A DNA stretch of 64,000 bases, from assembly GCF_006345805.1 (NCBI RefSeq), contig NC_043002.1:47306001-47370000 (forward strand), written 5' to 3'. Shown here one piece after another: positions 27,001 through 54,000 of this stretch. Position numbers: made by a program. Within the stretch, counting starts at the first letter, position 1. Each line of letters starts with the position of its first letter. This DNA is from Octopus sinensis. Taxonomy: Eukaryota.

Positions 27001-30000
27001 ACGAATATTGTTACCAAAAATAAATGTGACCTACATTCTTTAGTTCAAACAGGAGGTGTCCTCCTGGGGCTACAAACTACATTAGCATCCACCCTTAGGG
27101 GTTAGCCATATTTAAATGGCAAATATACGTCACGATGTGTTGCAGCTACTGTTTATAACTCGCTCTAAGATTTATTATTGCTTGTTTACACTTTTTCGAT
27201 ATCAGTGTCTTTACGATACTGGAAAAAGTATATGTATTTGTGAAGGGAACCTACTTTTCATGGACAACTGTGATTGTCACACGCCGATGACGGGTCAATA
27301 CTCAGAAACTCGAGTCTGTGTGTATCATAAGTTGGAGACGGGAAGGATGGCTTCCCTTTGCAAATACTGATAGGGCACAGAAAGTGTGTCTATAGCCAGC
27401 TGGAGGAGGTGTCCTCCTGGGGCTACAAACTACAGTAGCATCCACCCTTAGTGGTTAGCCATATTTAAATGGCAAATATACGTTACGATGTGTTGCAGCT
27501 ACTGTTTATAACTCGCTCTAAGATTTATTATTGAGTAAAAAGCTATCCACTTATAAGTATCAAAGGTCCAGAACTCTTACATCCCCCGCTTAGTGTTATT
27601 AACATATTACTTTTATCAACATGTTATCATCCAAAAGTGATTACAATAAATAGCTTCCATAGTGTTAGCAGTAATAATTTCTATTCTCGGCCTAAGAAAT
27701 ACGTTGTGTCCTTAAACAACGCACTTCATTTTATATAGCTCCAGTTCATTCAGCTAAAATGAGTAACTGCGTTACCTTGAAGGTTAAATCAGTAATGGAC
27801 TGGTGTCCCATTCAGCGAGGGAGTTTTCTATTTTTAATCGCTTCAGCCTCACGAAAATCAGGATAAAATCCAATTTAAAGGGCCTATAGGTTCAAGGTAC
27901 ACTTTATCATCCTTTAAATTGATACATGCATACATACATGTATGTGTACATAAGTCCTTATTTACATTTATGTATGGCTATATGCAATTATGTATGTATA
28001 TATATATATATATATATATATATATATATATATATATATTATATATATATATATATATATATATATATATATATATATTATATATATATATATATATATA
28101 TATATATGTATAATTAATTAATAAGGGTGAGAGAATTAGATACTAATTTAATAGTATATCCATTCAACACCAAGTGGCCTAGTGCTCCGAGAAACCTGGA
28201 TTATTATAATATTTTATAATATATTATAATATTTTTACAAAATAAATATAAGAGAGTGGTCACTATATGGCTCACTCTAGCACCAGTTAATCCAAAAGGT
28301 TTCAACCACTAAAAATACATGTTTCCCATGAAAGTCAGTACGATTGTTAGCTCACACGGACAGGGCAAATAAAAAATAACAAAAATACAGATTATTTTGG
28401 GACAATTGTTTCGCTATTAATGAATTAAATGTAATTTTACTTACAAAAAAATCCACTTGTAGCTCGTCGGCCAAAACTATCTGGATGAAATCCACTCAAT
28501 CACACGCCAGATTTTACCATAACGATAAATACGCGTGCGGTTCAATTGATTACATCCGACGTTATAATTCAAATGCCCCAACTAACAGCGCGCCAAACTT
28601 TCACGGAAAACAAATACAGCATTTAGAAATAAATGCAGCATAATTATAATTAATTAATAAGGGTGAGAGAATTAGATACTAATTTAATAGTATATCCATT
28701 CAACACCAAGTGGCCTAGTGCTCCGAGAAACCTGGATTATTATAATATTTTATAATATATTATAATATTTTTACAAAATAAATATAAGAGAGTGGTCACT
28801 ATATGGCTCACTCTAGCACCAGTTAATCCAAAAGGTTTCAACCACTAAAAATACATGTTTCCCATGAAAGTCAGTACGATTGTTAGCTCACACGGACAGG
28901 GCAAATAAAAAATAACAAAAATACAGATTATTTTGGGACAATTGTTTCGCAGCGAAACAATTGTCCCAAAATAATCTGTATTTTTGTTATTTTTTATTTG
29001 CCCTGTCCGTGTGAGCTAACAATCGTACTGACTTTCATGGGAAACATGTATTTTTAGTGGTTGAAACCTTTTGGATTAACTGGTGCTAGAGTGAGCCATA
29101 TAGTGACCACTCTCTTATATTTATCATATATATGTATATATATATATATATGTAATATATATATATATATATATATGTATATATATATATATATATATAT
29201 ATATATATATATATATATATATGTATATATATATATATATATATATATAATATATATATATGTATACATATATATGCATACATATGTATATGTATATATG
29301 TGTGTGTGTGTATGTATATGTATATATATGCTCACCTTATAGTAGGCATGTATCTAAATTTTGTACGACTCTTACTCTATTTTTTAGTCCCACTCATACT
29401 TTCTTCCTCTTTTCTTTTTCTTGCTCCCCCTCTCTCTCACACATTTCTTGGCACTCTCTTTCTTTAACTCCCACTATTTCCCACTCGTTTATCTCCCCTG
29501 TACCTTTCCCTTTTTCTCTGATTTTTTTCTAATCCTTCAATCCTGCTACCCCAACCTCTCTCTCCTCCTTCCACGTGACCGGTGTCCGACCAGCTATGAT
29601 CTTTCTTCTTTGGTCTGACTGCCGACCGTCAGCACCTCTTATGTCCATCTCCTATGTTCCTGCCTTTAGGCTTTCACTTCATACACGCAAGCTCAATTTG
29701 ATTCGTTCTCAGTCGAAAGACACCTGCTGTTTCTTTTTGTAATTGTGTACCGTGATCTCCGTTTTTGTCTTAGTTGCCGTACACGTTCGATAGATTTCTT
29801 ACAAAAAATTTAATGCTCTTATCTTAGTCTTTTTGGGGAGCAACCAGATCGGACTGTCTCAAGTGTAACTGCTTGAAACAGTAAGGACTTCTGGTAAACT
29901 TGACTGAAGAAAGAAGGCCACGAATAACCCGTCTTTTTTCCTGTCCTTCTGATTGTTGTTTCTCCAGTCTGCCTTTGCATCGTCTATCTGTCCGAATGTT

Positions 30001-51000: not shown

Positions 51001-54000
51001 CAATAGTCAAAGTAGCCAACATTTTACAGTAATATAACATGCAAGTAAAAACAACGTAGAGTACATTTCATAAAAACCTGATCAATTGTTATGATAAGTC
51101 CTTTCGTAGCAGAAGTAGAAATTCTTTCTATTATAGGCACAAGGTTTGAAATAGGGGTGGGATACTAGTCGGTTACAGCTCAACTGCTTCTTATTTCATT
51201 GACCCCGTAATGATAAAGGCAACGTCAACCTCAGCGGAATTTGAACTCAAAACGTAAAGACAGACGAAATCTTTGGAGAGTATTTTGTCTGGCATATTAA
51301 CGATTCTGCCAAATCAAAGTAAATGTTATCGCTATGGAATCAAGCTAGACAGAAGAGACCATTTGGGTTAAAATTAATGAGTGTGAGGGACAAAATTAGC
51401 ATATAAGACGCCCAACTTCGCATATAGGACTCGGGGTGATCTTTTAGGCATCTTATGGAGTTTTATAAGCCATCAAATAAATAGTTAGGCATGAAACTAA
51501 AATAAAATGTTAAAATGTTGAAGATAGAAAATAAATGTCTTCATCGTAACTTTTATTTTATATTTCTTTATTTTGGAAAATTTCCTTGCATTTGTTCGTA
51601 TAAGCTAAACAGATAATTAGAGATAATTACAAGTGTAAAGAAAAAAATTAACAGAATTCGCTTTAAATATATTGAAATGCGCAAAAATGTTGCCTTTTCG
51701 CTTTAAATAAATTGAAATCGCTTTAAATACATTGACATCTACAAAAATATTGCCTACAACGTTATCTCACATCAAAAAGCCGCGGTTAGTCCTTCAAGGG
51801 TTCCCAACCTCTATTCAAAAATATAGCATAAAACAAACAAGTAAAAAACAAAAAAAAAACAGCAAGACTATGTGACACACACGCAAGATATAGATTTCTA
51901 AAAGGAGCCTTCAGAAACACTAATATATCCGCTATCTTCATGCAAATCTATATATTGGATTTAATGCAATGTCTTTTAATTCTTCTGCTAGTTTTGTTAT
52001 TTGACACTGGTTCATATCGGGGCTGCACCTGAATGTGTGTGTGTGTGTGTGTGTGTGCATATACATACATACGTACATATAGATATATATATGGATATGT
52101 ATATGTGTGTATGTGTATGTATAGTCGATTTTATTGTACTCGCTACTTATTTTATTGACCTAAGATGGAAGGATGAAAGTGAACCATATACATACATACA
52201 TACATACATACATACATACATACATACACATGTGTGCGCGCTTTGTGTGTATGTCTGTCTGTTATAACGATAGAATATGAATTTGTTTCCGTTTCACATA
52301 CGCTCCTTTCAGCCTGCCACATTGGTAATGCTTGAAAAGTATAAACAAAGTTTGTTTGCATTCTTTGAAATCAATACAATTGATAACCCTTTTTGAATTG
52401 TATCTTACATAAGCAAAATTGCAGTAATTGAAATAATTGGTGCATGAATATTTGTAGACATGATTGTGCATGTCTATATGAATATATGCAGGCATGATTG
52501 TGTATGCTTATGTAAGCACGATTACACAATCCTTAATGTGGATGTGTATGTATACGTATCTATCTAACTTCTCTTTCTCTCTCTCACACACACATATACA
52601 TATATGTATGTATGTATGTATGTATGTATGTATGTATGTATGTATGCATGTATGTATCTATGCATGTATATATATATATATATATATATATATATAATAT
52701 ATATATATATATATAGAGAGAGAGAGAGAGAGAGAGAGAGAGAGCAATAAGAAAATGGAGAGGATCAATAGGTGGTTCATCAACTTTTAGATATTATATT
52801 ATATCAATTTATTTATTTATTTACTAAAATGACAAATTCAAGAATATACATCCATATATAACATATTATGCTTTACATATGAAATATATTAATATATTTT
52901 ATATGTAAAGCATAATATGTTATAATATGTTATATATGTATGTATATTCTTGTATTTGCCGCTTTGGTACATAAATAAGTAAATTGACATAATATAATGT
53001 CTAAAAGTTGATGAACCACCTATTGATCCCCTCCATTTTCTTATTGCTCTATAAATTAATGGTAAAATATCTCTTTACCCTCACCCATTTAGTACACTCG
53101 GTAACGTAATTGCAATTAATACACTTGTGTATTAATAATTGGTTATTCTAGCAGCAGTATATTGGATAGATATTACCCCTTAGTTGGTTGGATTCACAAG
53201 CTTTAACTTTCTTGGAAATATATATATATATATATATTTATATATATATATATATATATATATCTGTTCTATATTAAAAGGGCGGAGGTCTCACGTGCAG
53301 TTGTGCAGGAAAAAGTGTTAGTTAATGTGGTTGGATTGAGCTGAAAATTTGCACGCCTGTGGGGAACGTGCTAGCGTGTATGCATGGCAAATTTCCATTG
53401 AAAGGTGTTGCCGCTAGGGCAAAATCCATCGTTTTCAAAAGGAATTTGACAAGTGTTTGTCGTTTCTCTCTTTCGGCTACCATCCTTTCTCTCTCGATTC
53501 TCTTTTGCCTCCACTTTCTGTCTGTAACGACGTTTGACAGCTTCCACTATCTCTCCTGCTTTTTCTACGCCGTCTCTCTGTCGTTCTTTCTTCCACCGTC
53601 CCTCTCTCTCTCTCTCTCTCTCTCTGTAGCTCTGTCTGTATCTATAGGGAGAAAGCGTTGACAGACGCAAGTGTGCATGATTCTCAGTCTCTTTGGCATC
53701 AAATGCATGCAAAAAGTTTTAGAAATTTTAGCAAAAAACTTTTAATGGTCACTTTTTTGTTGTTGCAGCTGCTTAAAACTTATTGGGCGTTTGCTTCTGC
53801 CATTTTGCATTTTTTCCAAATAAAAATGGCATCTGCATATAGAGTGTGATGAGATACATTTTTCACATTTTGAATGGTTCAAAAATTCCGGCGATAGACC
53901 CGAGTAGACTCGAATGAAATCGGGTTACAATACTGAAACAAGTAAAACAATAATAAACTATTTTAATCCCGAGCAAGGCCGGATATCTTTTTCATTTCAT

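What the first reader, a model, noticed from the sequence alone, without database searches (positions are those of the whole stretch)
28951..52891. Shared fold-back rule: head-to-head arms, 0-1 nt spacer, one arm longer
Seen: palindrome centres at 28951, 32136/35803 and 40876 each have a single unpaired base, 52890/52891 has none, and ~17440 has about 6. Where polarity is readable (ORF or HHR), sense runs outward from the centre, and one arm keeps extra 3' sequence. Established: PLE insertions often carry an inverted 5'-truncated segment. Inference: near-zero spacers point to hairpin (snap-back) priming of second-strand synthesis from the cDNA 3' end rather than two independent insertions.
Basis: partly seen in the sequence, partly recalled or inferred. 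Interest (0 to 1): 0.72.

Follow-up and report, generated by a model that had tools for sequence, protein, structure and literature searches.

The report
Fold-back Penelope-like retroelement insertions
The palindromes are real head-to-head pairs of 5'-truncated Penelope-like retroelement ends inserted in TA microsatellites, a known architecture of this element class whose origin by a polymerase turning back on its own product has already been proposed in print.

Summary
Five independent palindromes lie at about 17440, 28951, 32136 (35803 is its tandem duplicate), 40876 and 52890, with 6, 1, 1, 1 and 0 unpaired bases. Thirty composition-matched shuffles gave none.

They are Penelope-like element (PLE) 3' ends. 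The 1.9-kb arms at 32136/35803 encode the C-terminal endonuclease part of a Hydra-clade PLE. The arms at 28951 and 40876 carry hammerhead-like motifs, and 17440 carries half of one. Sense runs outward wherever it can be read.

All five sit between (TA)n tracts. In each, one arm abuts (TA)n directly and the other keeps an extra 71-167 nt.

Both arms stop at the same nucleotide, give or take one. That fits one integration event with a copy-back turn, not two insertions.

A classical hairpin primer is not shown. The turn has no loop. At 28951 the central base equals the element's own next base. Only one centre has a significant micro-inverted repeat.

A sixth structure at 60158-60568 has a 114-nt spacer.

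The architecture and the self-priming idea are already published (PMC3846280, PMC8557442). Reads and a genome-wide census could not be checked.

The parts
17146..17188 (.). (TA)n flank, left of structure A
17189..17276 (-). Structure A: extra 3' tail, about 90 nt, carried by the left arm only
17277..17437 (-). Structure A left arm. Holds a hammerhead 3' half-motif at 17310-17321.
17438..17443 (.). Structure A: 6-nt spacer
17444..17604 (+). Structure A right arm. Abuts (TA)n from about 17601. Half-motif at 17561-17572.
28109..28639 (-). Structure B: one full 538-nt unit of a short tandem element, with (TA)n at its 3' end. It holds a hammerhead-like motif at 28401-28470 with helix I of 6 bp, helix II of 4 bp, and C in place of U at core position 4.
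28640..28950 (-). Structure B left arm, a 5'-truncated second unit. 28778-28950 pairs with the right arm. 28640-28777 is the extra 3' tail.
28951..28951 (.). Structure B centre, one base. It equals the element's native next base when read in right-arm sense.
28952..29124 (+). Structure B right arm, tail-less, running into (TA)n at 29125-29330
30165..30237 (-). Structure C copy 1: 73-nt tail on the left arm, next to TA-rich DNA
30238..32135 (-). Structure C copy 1 left arm. Endonuclease-coding part at 31365-32133. Hammerhead core at 30275-30304.
32136..32136 (.). Structure C copy 1 centre, one base
32137..33795 (+). Structure C copy 1 right arm. It is cut at an internal TA run and joined to the (TA)n at 33796-33845 that precedes copy 2.
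33846..33916 (-). Structure C copy 2: 71-nt tail on the left arm
33917..35802 (-). Structure C copy 2 left arm. Endonuclease-coding part at 35032-35800. Hammerhead core at 33954-33983.
35803..35803 (.). Structure C copy 2 centre, one base, identical to 32136
35804..37692 (+). Structure C copy 2 right arm, tail-less, running into (TA)n(GA)n. ORF at 35765-36526. Hammerhead core at 37626-37655.
40715..40875 (-). Structure D left arm, tail-less, next to (TA)n at 40620-40714. Hammerhead-like motif at 40815-40849.
40876..40876 (.). Structure D centre, one base
40877..41039 (+). Structure D right arm. Hammerhead-like motif at 40903-40937.
41040..41119 (+). Structure D: 80-nt tail on the right arm only, followed by (TA)n from 41120
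52745..52890 (.). Structure E left arm, next to (TA)n(GA)n at 52660-52744. Polarity not readable.
52891..53050 (.). Structure E right arm. No base lies between the arms. There is a 10-nt insertion 21 nt from the centre.
53051..53217 (.). Structure E: 167 nt of extra sequence on the right side only, followed by (TA)n at 53218-53262
60158..60568 (.). Structure F, not in the finding. Arms at 60158-60304 and 60419-60568, 129 of 144 identical. The 114-nt spacer holds a hammerhead-like core on the minus strand at 60337-60375. (TA)n lies on the left only.

Best explanation
Each structure records one integration of a Penelope-like retroelement RNA into a (TA)n microsatellite.

Shown:
- The arms are 3'-terminal pieces of PLEs, of at least three unrelated families.
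- Sense points outward.
- Both arms are cut at the same nucleotide, give or take one.
- Both outer ends lie in (TA)n.
- One arm always carries 71-167 nt more at its 3' end.

Inferred:
- Reverse transcription was primed on a nicked (TA)n strand from the outermost 3' site. This gave the long, tailed arm.
- It ran to the point where the template ended or the enzyme stalled.
- The polymerase then changed template, without leaving a loop, to DNA of the same element. It copied that DNA back out towards the 3' end.
- The new strand was captured by the other (TA)n end at a TA-rich patch, before the tail. This gave the short arm.

The template of the return leg was most likely the nascent cDNA itself (snap-back). 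A second cDNA primed on the other target strand is the main alternative.

I give about 0.65 to one coupled copy-back event and about 0.4 to the self-templated form of it.
For: PLE identity of structure C:
- The arm ORF P0001 found 8338 proteins at E<=1e-3. The best is a 713-aa protein at E 2.9e-80 and 57% identity, matching its residues 459-681.
- tblastn of 12 full-length relatives hits only the four C arms. The hits run from residue 446/447 at the centre out to the C-terminus.
- The family alignment shows the features that the text of PMC8557442 section 11 gives for the Hydra clade: RWK, DKT, a CxCX5C linker, and CxxC and CxH around the conserved E and N.

Hammerhead-like motifs:
- The CUGANGA...GAAA pattern gave 15 matches against 2.84 expected. 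None of 100 shuffles reached 15.
- The GAAAC-loop-GTA pattern gave 14 matches against 4.39 expected, and 0 of 100 shuffles reached that.
- A full descriptor gave 5 hits against a mean of 1.03 in 30 controls.

Coupled origin:
- The truncation points coincide to 0-1 nt in 4 of 5 structures.
- The three young pairs are 173/174, 160/161 and effectively identical, and each has exactly 1 central base.
- The short arm is contained in the long arm in 6 of 6 structures.
- Tail asymmetry is seen in 5 of 5. If each arm chose its end independently, this would be expected at most half the time per structure.

Literature:
- Head-to-head inverted 5'-truncated copies, a tail at one end and (TA)n targets are described for PLEs (PMC8557442, passages and section 11).
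- Palindromes at the inverted junction have been read as self-priming (PMC3846280, passages).
- cDNA snap-back junctions have been seen experimentally for R2 (PMC11371274, passages).
Against: - No read support could be examined.
- No genome beyond this 64-kb window could be examined, so the spacer distribution rests on 6 structures.
- No Rfam hammerhead family matched, even in stretches of 121 and 196 nt at E<=10.
- Pfam found nothing in the arm ORF or in its 713-aa relative.
- Foldseek gave no significant match to either model. GIY-YIG nucleases appear only among sub-threshold hits.
- Structures A and E are old (89% and 92% identity) and carry weak or no polarity marks. They could be another kind of hairpin repeat.
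- A 1-nt turn cannot be a real hairpin loop.
- Structure F has a 114-nt spacer.
- The four C arms differ only by 1-nt indels plus one 15-nt insertion, with no true substitutions. This looks like consensus noise of a long-read assembly. It leaves open that the tandem second copy of C is a mis-assembly.
Confidence: 0.65

Rival explanations
1. Two primers, one RNA. The element's dimeric protein nicks both strands of the (TA)n target and both 3' ends prime on one RNA. One primes at an inner site (the short arm) and one at the outermost site (the long arm). The trailing enzyme displaces the leading cDNA. At the common end of the template it jumps end-to-end onto the 3' end of that cDNA and copies it back to the target.
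For: - A purified PLE protein cleaves and extends both strands in vitro. It starts at two internal sites that define the tail, and it is predicted to be a dimer (PMC11167929, main text read whole).
- This model explains the loop-less turn.
- It explains the central base at 28951 being the element's own next base.
- It explains the systematic tail asymmetry, 5 of 5.
- It explains a left arm of 1.58 tandem units facing a 173-nt right arm in structure B.
Against: - Nothing in the sequence separates it from self-templated snap-back except the central base at 28951. That base would match by chance one time in four, or more often if the enzyme prefers to add A.
- The tails here are 71-167 nt, against 30-40 bp in the literature.
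- No experiment shows a jump between two cDNAs.
Confidence: 0.25
2. Two independent insertions of the same element, in opposite orientation, into the same (TA)n tract.
For: (TA)n is a preferred target of these elements (PMC8557442), so repeated hits are plausible. Structure F, with unequal 5' ends, would fit.
Against: - Independent 5' truncations would not coincide to within 1 nt in 4 of 5 structures whose arms range from 146 to 1894 nt.
- No (TA)n lies between the arms.
- The arms of B, C and D are virtually identical.
Confidence: 0.03
3. The palindromes formed after insertion at the DNA level. Possible routes are a hairpin-capped break, a fold-back inversion, or a replication template switch at fragile (TA)n.
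For: (TA)n tracts are self-complementary and break-prone (general knowledge). Replication of a capped hairpin gives perfect palindromes.
Against: - The arms end at element 3' ends on both sides.
- The palindrome does not extend into unique flanking DNA.
- Five structures from at least three unrelated sequences share the same tail rule.
Confidence: 0.07
4. Assembly artefact. Fold-back chimeric long reads, or mis-joins at TA runs, created the centres.
For: - The four C arms differ only by 1-nt indels and one 15-nt insertion, with no substitutions. The assembly therefore carries long-read indel noise.
- Both boundaries of the 3681-nt tandem duplicate of C lie in TA runs.
Against: - Every palindrome is internal to the contig, with different unique DNA on each side.
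- A, E and F have 12-17 substitutions between their arms, so they are old, real duplicates.
- B, C and D follow the same tail and (TA)n rule as the old ones.
Confidence: 0.05
5. Structures A and E only are hairpin-type DNA transposons (MITE or foldback elements), not PLE fragments.
For: - They are 310-330 nt, 89% and 92% palindromic.
- Neither has an ORF or a complete hammerhead.
- A gives sub-threshold matches to plant miRNA-precursor models, as hairpin repeats do.
Against: - Both lie between (TA)n tracts with an extra 90-167 nt on one side only, exactly like B, C and D.
- A carries the GAAAC-tetraloop-GTA half-motif on the outward strand in both arms.
- No target-site duplication is discernible.
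Confidence: 0.1

Closest known systems
Penelope-like elements, Hydra clade (Craig et al. 2021, PMC8557442)
   Same: - The GIY-YIG-type endonuclease is C-terminal to the RT in relatives of about 700-760 aa.
- CxCX5C linker.
- DKT and RWK motifs in the relatives.
- CxxC and CxH around the conserved E and N.
- (TA)n targets.
- A hammerhead core near the 3' end.
   Different: - The window holds only the last 268 or so codons plus about 1.1 kb of non-coding 3' sequence, in four copies. It holds no RT part.
- The closest protein found is 57% identical.
- The hammerhead core has a 2-bp helix II closed by an A-A mismatch, and Rfam does not recognise it.
PLE insertion architecture: pseudo-LTRs, an inverted 5'-truncated copy, a one-sided tail (PMC8557442 Fig. 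2 legend and text; PMC3846280)
   Same: - Head-to-head inverted copies with sense outward.
- A palindromic junction.
- An extension at one end only.
- AT-rich or microsatellite targets.
- A partial tandem in structure B.
   Different: - Here both arms are truncated at the same point and no full-length copy is attached.
- The tails are 71-167 nt rather than 30-40 bp.
- In structure C the whole palindrome is tandemly duplicated.
cDNA snap-back 5' junctions of R2-mediated insertion (PMC11371274)
   Same: The cDNA 3' end primes DNA-templated synthesis complementary to the cDNA. This places antisense element sequence next to the target.
   Different: There the priming site is described as an internal position of the cDNA, which leaves a loop, as in structure F. 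Structures A to E have 0-6 nt.
L1 5' inversions by twin priming
   Same: An inverted 5' segment arises during a single target-primed event.
   Different: In twin priming the inverted part is a different, more upstream part of the element. Here the two arms are copies of the same segment.
Animal non-LTR retrozymes, short tandem hammerhead-bearing PLE derivatives (PMC7229834 listing only; bioRxiv 10.64898/2026.07.22.740005 passages)
   Same: Structure B is a non-coding 538-nt unit in 1.58 tandem copies, with a type-I hammerhead-like motif spanning the unit junction.
   Different: B has only 1.58 units, and an inverted arm is attached. Core position 4 is C instead of U.

Membership tests
PLE, Hydra clade | Single ORF with RT followed by a C-terminal GIY-YIG endonuclease | tested here: met
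   The arm ORF matches the C-terminal 220 or so residues of proteins of 690-762 aa. Those proteins carry the RT motifs FDxxxFYPSI and GLYRDDG. The window copy itself lacks the RT part.
PLE, Hydra clade | Linker motif CxCX5C upstream of the endonuclease | tested here: met
   It is present in P0001. The cysteines are invariant in 13 of 13 aligned sequences.
PLE, Hydra clade | DKT in place of DKG, and an RWK motif, in the N-terminal part | tested here: inconclusive
   Most of the 12 full-length relatives have DKT and RW(K/R). This part is absent from the window copy.
PLE, Hydra clade | CCHH motif of other PLE endonucleases is absent; CxxC and CxH lie around the conserved E and N | tested here: inconclusive
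   CxxC before the invariant E, and CxH after the N, are conserved in the relatives. The window copy keeps CxxC and E but loses the rest to frame disruption. I could not place the CCHH motif from the text alone, because supplementary figure S7 was not seen.
PLE, Hydra clade | Insertion into (TA)n | tested here: met
   (TA)n or TA-rich DNA lies at both outer ends of C, and also of A, B, D and E.
PLE, Hydra clade | Canonical hammerhead ribozyme | tested here: inconclusive
   The core CUGAUGA, 10 nt, then GAAA is present in 3 of 4 arms. This meets the core descriptor quoted in PMC8557442. Helix II is only 2 bp, and no Rfam hammerhead model matched.
GIY-YIG nuclease fold | Beta-beta-alpha-alpha-beta-alpha core with the GIY, YIG, R, H/Y, E and N positions | tested here: inconclusive
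   - The AF2 model of the core has pLDDT 93.8 and the element order E-E-H-H-E-H.
- Y, Y-G, R, H and E are conserved.
- Foldseek found 0 matches at E<=0.001.
- I-TevI, T4 EndoII, UvrC and Hpy188I appear only at E 1.4-2.4, with TM up to 0.54.
- Pfam gave no hit.
PLE insertion architecture | Inverted 5'-truncated copy joined head-to-head | tested here: met
   Sense is outward in B, C and D, and weakly in A.
PLE insertion architecture | Optional tail present at one end only | tested here: met
   5 of 5 structures have extra 3' sequence on one arm only. The lengths are 71-167 nt, longer than the 30-40 bp described.
Metazoan type-I hammerhead (PMC4209133) | Helix I about 6 bp, helix II about 4 bp, helix III of 1-2 bp capped by a 2-4 nt palindromic loop, and a conserved core | tested here: inconclusive
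   - B has helix I of 6 bp, helix II of 4 bp, a palindromic tetraloop, and one core change.
- D has helix II of 5 bp and helix I of 4 bp.
- No Rfam hammerhead hit.
- MFE folds are no better than shuffles, with z of 0.09 and -0.14.
L1-type twin priming inversion | The inverted segment derives from a different, upstream part of the element | tested here: not met
   The arms are copies of the same segment in 6 of 6 structures.
MITE / foldback DNA transposon | Symmetric terminal inverted repeats flanked by a target-site duplication | tested here: not met
   The outer ends are asymmetric, with a tail on one side. No duplication is discernible in the (TA)n flanks. The arms of B, C and D carry polar retroelement features.

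The most novel reading that the evidence does not exclude
The turn is not a hairpin. It is an end-to-end jump between two cDNAs primed on the two strands of one (TA)n target by a dimeric PLE protein working on one RNA. The enzyme that started further out displaces the inner cDNA. At the shared template end it copies that cDNA back to the target.

One mechanism would then explain the inverted pseudo-LTRs, the one-sided tail and the perfect junction of PLEs. Their origin has been called undefined since the elements were described.
Probability: 0.22. Interest if true: 0.6.

Novelty: new member of a known kind. Interest (0 to 1): 0.3.

Why it matters
How PLEs integrate is still unsettled. The papers read here call the tandem and inverted structures the product of undefined steps of the transposition cycle.

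This window offers six natural junctions from at least three unrelated PLE-derived families. Together they sharpen what any model must explain:
- a turn with no loop;
- a central base that can be templated;
- both arms cut at one point;
- a tail on exactly one arm;
- (TA)n on both sides.

This is a useful constraint, not a new phenomenon. It also warns annotators that such hairpins score as miRNA precursors in covariance-model scans.

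Tried and rejected
- **Rfam.** I searched the whole window at gathering threshold, 16000-54000 at E<=10, and two short stretches at E<=10. No hammerhead family appeared. Only miRNA-like hairpin and microsatellite matches came up.
- **Pfam.** I scanned 94 ORFs of the window and 6 full-length relatives. Nothing was found in the palindrome arms or their relatives. The only hits were a LINE-type RT and a mariner remnant elsewhere.
- **PDB by sequence.** A single-protein search and a profile search gave nothing relevant.
- **Structure.** Two AF2 models were searched with Foldseek against the PDB. 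There were no significant matches.
- **A closer relative.** I looked for a relative of the C family that would show the native residue at the truncation point (longer proteins). Of 21 hits, none was closer than 57% identity, so the test of the central base at 32136 failed.
- **Micro-inverted repeats at the turn points**. Only C stands out.
- **RNA folding of the two hammerhead regions**. The folds were no more stable than shuffles.
- **Genome-wide census.** This was not possible. /data holds only the window. The genome collection holds bacteria and archaea only, so I did not spend its scan.
- **Supplementary files.** Those of PMC8557442 (S1, S2, S7), which list Hydra families and their hammerheads, were not opened. 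Figures are not held.

Full report
**Observation**

The window has no N. An inverted-repeat scan and a dust-filtered self-BLAST find palindromes at the stated places. The sequence at each centre shows:
- one central base at 28951, 32136, 35803 and 40876;
- none at 52890/52891;
- six at 17438-17443.

Gapped arm comparisons give these identities:

| Structure | Centre | Identical / aligned | Notes |
|---|---|---|---|
| A | 17440 | 143/160 | |
| B | 28951 | 173/174 | |
| C copy 1 | 32136 | 1668/1669 | 15 gap events |
| C copy 2 | 35803 | 1888/1889 | 7 gap events |
| D | 40876 | 160/161 | |
| E | 52890 | 134/146 | |

The real window holds five self-palindromic matches of 80 nt or more. None appeared in any of 30 second-order Markov shuffles. 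That filter missed D, which one search found.

32136 and 35803 are not independent. 30111-33813 repeats at 33792-37483 with a period of 3681, and both boundaries lie in TA runs.

**What the arms are**

Pfam sees nothing in the arm ORFs. A phmmer search with the 254-residue ORF at 35765-36526 against 1.84 billion representatives gives 8338 hits at E<=1e-3. The best is a 713-aa protein at E 2.9e-80 and 57% identity, and the match covers its residues 459-681. About a dozen relatives of 690-762 aa match in the same C-terminal position.

An alignment of 12 such proteins with the window ORF shows:
- RT-like motifs (FDxxxFYPSI, GLYRDDG);
- RW(K/R) and DKT motifs;
- an invariant CxCX5C linker;
- conserved Y, Y-G, R, H and E positions of a GIY-YIG-like core;
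- CxxC and CxH around the conserved E and N.

Section 11 of PMC8557442, read whole, lists exactly these features for the Hydra clade of Penelope-like elements. It adds (TA)n targets and hammerhead ribozymes.

tblastn of the 12 proteins hits only the four C arms. The hits run from residue 446/447 at the centre to the C-terminus about 800 nt out. All four arms are therefore the same 5'-truncated 3' part, and the window has no RT part.

AF2 models are confident (pLDDT 86 and 93.8). Foldseek finds nothing significant. GIY-YIG nucleases (I-TevI, T4 EndoII, UvrC, Hpy188I) recur only below threshold. The fold assignment therefore rests on motifs and on the literature description.

**Hammerhead-like motifs**

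The core pattern CUGANGA, 7-30 nt, then GAAA occurs 15 times against 2.84 expected, and none of 100 shuffles reached 15. It lies in three C arms and both D arms, always on the outward strand.

The 3' half pattern, GAAAC, a 4-5 nt loop, then GTA, occurs 14 times against 4.39 expected. It adds both A arms, again on the outward strand.

A fuller descriptor requiring helices I, II and III gives 5 hits against a mean of 1.03 in 30 controls:
- both D arms;
- 28401-28470 on the minus strand, in B;
- 45133-45205 on the minus strand;
- one weak site.

The short helix III with a palindromic tetraloop is what PMC4209133 describes for metazoan type-I hammerheads (passages).

Against this, no Rfam hammerhead family matched at any threshold or stretch length. 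The folds are also no more stable than shuffles.

**Shared anatomy**

Every structure lies between TA microsatellites. One arm abuts (TA)n directly. The other carries extra 3' sequence before (TA)n.

| Structure | Tailed arm | Tail length |
|---|---|---|
| A | left | about 90 nt |
| B | left | 138 nt |
| C | left | 71-73 nt |
| D | right | 80 nt |
| E | right | 167 nt |

In B the left side also continues into a further full 538-nt unit, giving a partial tandem. The two direct copies are 306/306 identical.

The literature describes this one-sided extension as the PLE tail, at 30-40 bp. It also describes an inverted 5'-truncated copy at the 5' end (PMC8557442 passages; PMC3846280 passages).

**The turn itself**

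In B the native sequence upstream of the arm start can be read from the adjacent tandem copy. The central base at 28951, read in right-arm sense, equals that native base. One arm is therefore simply 1 nt longer, and no untemplated base is required. Chance agreement is one in four.

The B centre lies inside the hammerhead motif, 14 nt upstream of the predicted cleavage site. Ribozyme cleavage therefore did not set the end.

In C the turn sits at the foot of a 7-bp, 4-nt-loop hairpin within the coding sequence. Such stems occur in 0.66% of background 25-mers. The other centres have only 3- to 5-bp stems, and a 4-bp stem occurs in 32% of background.

A search for a closer relative, to read the native codon at the C turn, found nothing above 57% identity.

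**Counter-example and local census**

A sixth structure lies at 60158-60568. Its arms are 129/144 identical. (TA)n lies on the left only. A hammerhead-like core lies on the minus strand inside a 114-nt spacer. It is also head-to-head with sense outward, but the 5' ends are unequal.

A further inverted pair, 57772-57956 with 58968-59155, has a 1011-nt spacer and no TA flanks. Its nature is unknown.

The counts are as follows:
- Of 7 non-microsatellite inverted structures in the window, 4 have 0-1 nt and 5 have 6 nt or fewer.
- Of the 6 with PLE hallmarks, 4 have 0-1 nt.
- The three young ones all have exactly 1.

At least two hammerhead-like 3' ends, at 45133-45205 and near 42063, have no inverted partner.

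**Mechanism**

Two independent insertions cannot explain truncation points that coincide to 1 nt in arms of 146-1894 nt. They also cannot explain a tail on exactly one arm in 5 of 5 structures.

DNA-level palindrome formation after insertion would not stop at element 3' ends on both sides.

A coupled copy-back during integration fits the data. The first strand is primed on a (TA)n nick at the outermost site and runs to the template end. The polymerase then switches to DNA of the same element and copies back out. The new strand is captured at a TA-rich patch before the tail.

Whether the return template is the nascent cDNA itself or a second cDNA cannot be told from the sequence.
- For the self-templated form: snap-back has been seen for R2 in cells (PMC11371274 passages), and self-priming has been proposed for PLEs (PMC3846280).
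- For the second-cDNA form: a purified PLE protein cleaves and extends both target strands, starts at two internal sites that define the tail, and is predicted to be a dimer (PMC11167929 main text).

The loop-less turn and the templated central base in B lean slightly to an end-to-end switch over a looped hairpin.

**Caveats**

No reads could be checked, and no genome beyond the window.

The four C arms differ only by single-base indels and one 15-nt insertion, with no true substitution. Four of the indels are shared by both left arms against both right arms. This looks like long-read consensus noise, so C is very young. Its tandem second copy may be a mis-assembly.

A and E are old and weakly marked.

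**Comparison and novelty**

The architecture (head-to-head inverted 5'-truncated copies, a palindromic junction, a one-sided tail, AT-rich or (TA)n targets) and the self-priming reading are in print. My searches for a treatment of spacer length or of the central base found only PMC3846280, PMC8557442 and PMC11167929 touching the question. None of the passages I read gives a spacer census.

The finding is therefore new instances of a known kind. The modest added constraints are listed under 'Shared anatomy' and 'The turn itself'.

Noticed in passing
The arms are about 147 nt and 90% identical. The 114-nt spacer holds a hammerhead-like core on the minus strand (60337-60375). (CA)n(TA)n lies on the left only.
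   Followed up: partly
window 57772-57956 and 58968-59155: A 188-nt inverted repeat, 91% identical, with a 1011-nt spacer and no TA flanks. The ORFs between the arms have no Pfam hit. Its nature is unknown.
   Followed up: no
window 30111-37483: The whole palindrome C is tandemly duplicated with a period of 3681, and both boundaries lie in TA runs. The four arms differ only by 1-nt indels and one 15-nt insertion. This suggests long-read consensus noise and possibly a mis-assembled second copy.
   Followed up: partly
window 45133-45205 (-), about 42063-42140 (-), 13820-13868 (-): Further hammerhead-like motifs without an inverted partner. The first two lie next to degenerate TA or TG microsatellites. 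They are probably solitary PLE-derived 3' ends.
   Followed up: partly
window 47186-50628 (-): A LINE-type element on the minus strand. RVT_1 matches at E 4e-15, zf-RVT matches at 47186-47539, and there is a 423-aa ORF upstream. The region 46000-50000 has a strong AT skew of about -0.4.
   Followed up: no
window 12869-13589 (+): A mariner/Mos1-type transposase remnant. HTH_48 matches at E 1.8e-24 and there is a weak Transposase_1 match.
   Followed up: no
window 55433-56991: A tandem repeat with a period of 515 nt, about three copies at 99% identity. It has no hammerhead core pattern. Other short direct repeats lie at 53276-55299.
   Followed up: no
window 40780-40975 and 17364-17517: The PLE fold-backs score as plant or animal miRNA precursors below gathering threshold, for example MIR5512 at 75 bits and MIR6135 at 60 bits. 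Such hairpins could be mis-annotated as miRNA genes.
   Followed up: no
proteins P0003, P0153 and others: The protein database lists precomputed Pfam accessions PF28514.1 and PF26215.1 for relatives of the arm ORF. The Pfam copy searched here returned no family for P0003, and I could not see the names of these accessions.
   Followed up: no
window 5912-6261 and 44114-44485: A direct repeat at 80% identity, 38 kb apart. It is an unidentified dispersed repeat.
   Followed up: no
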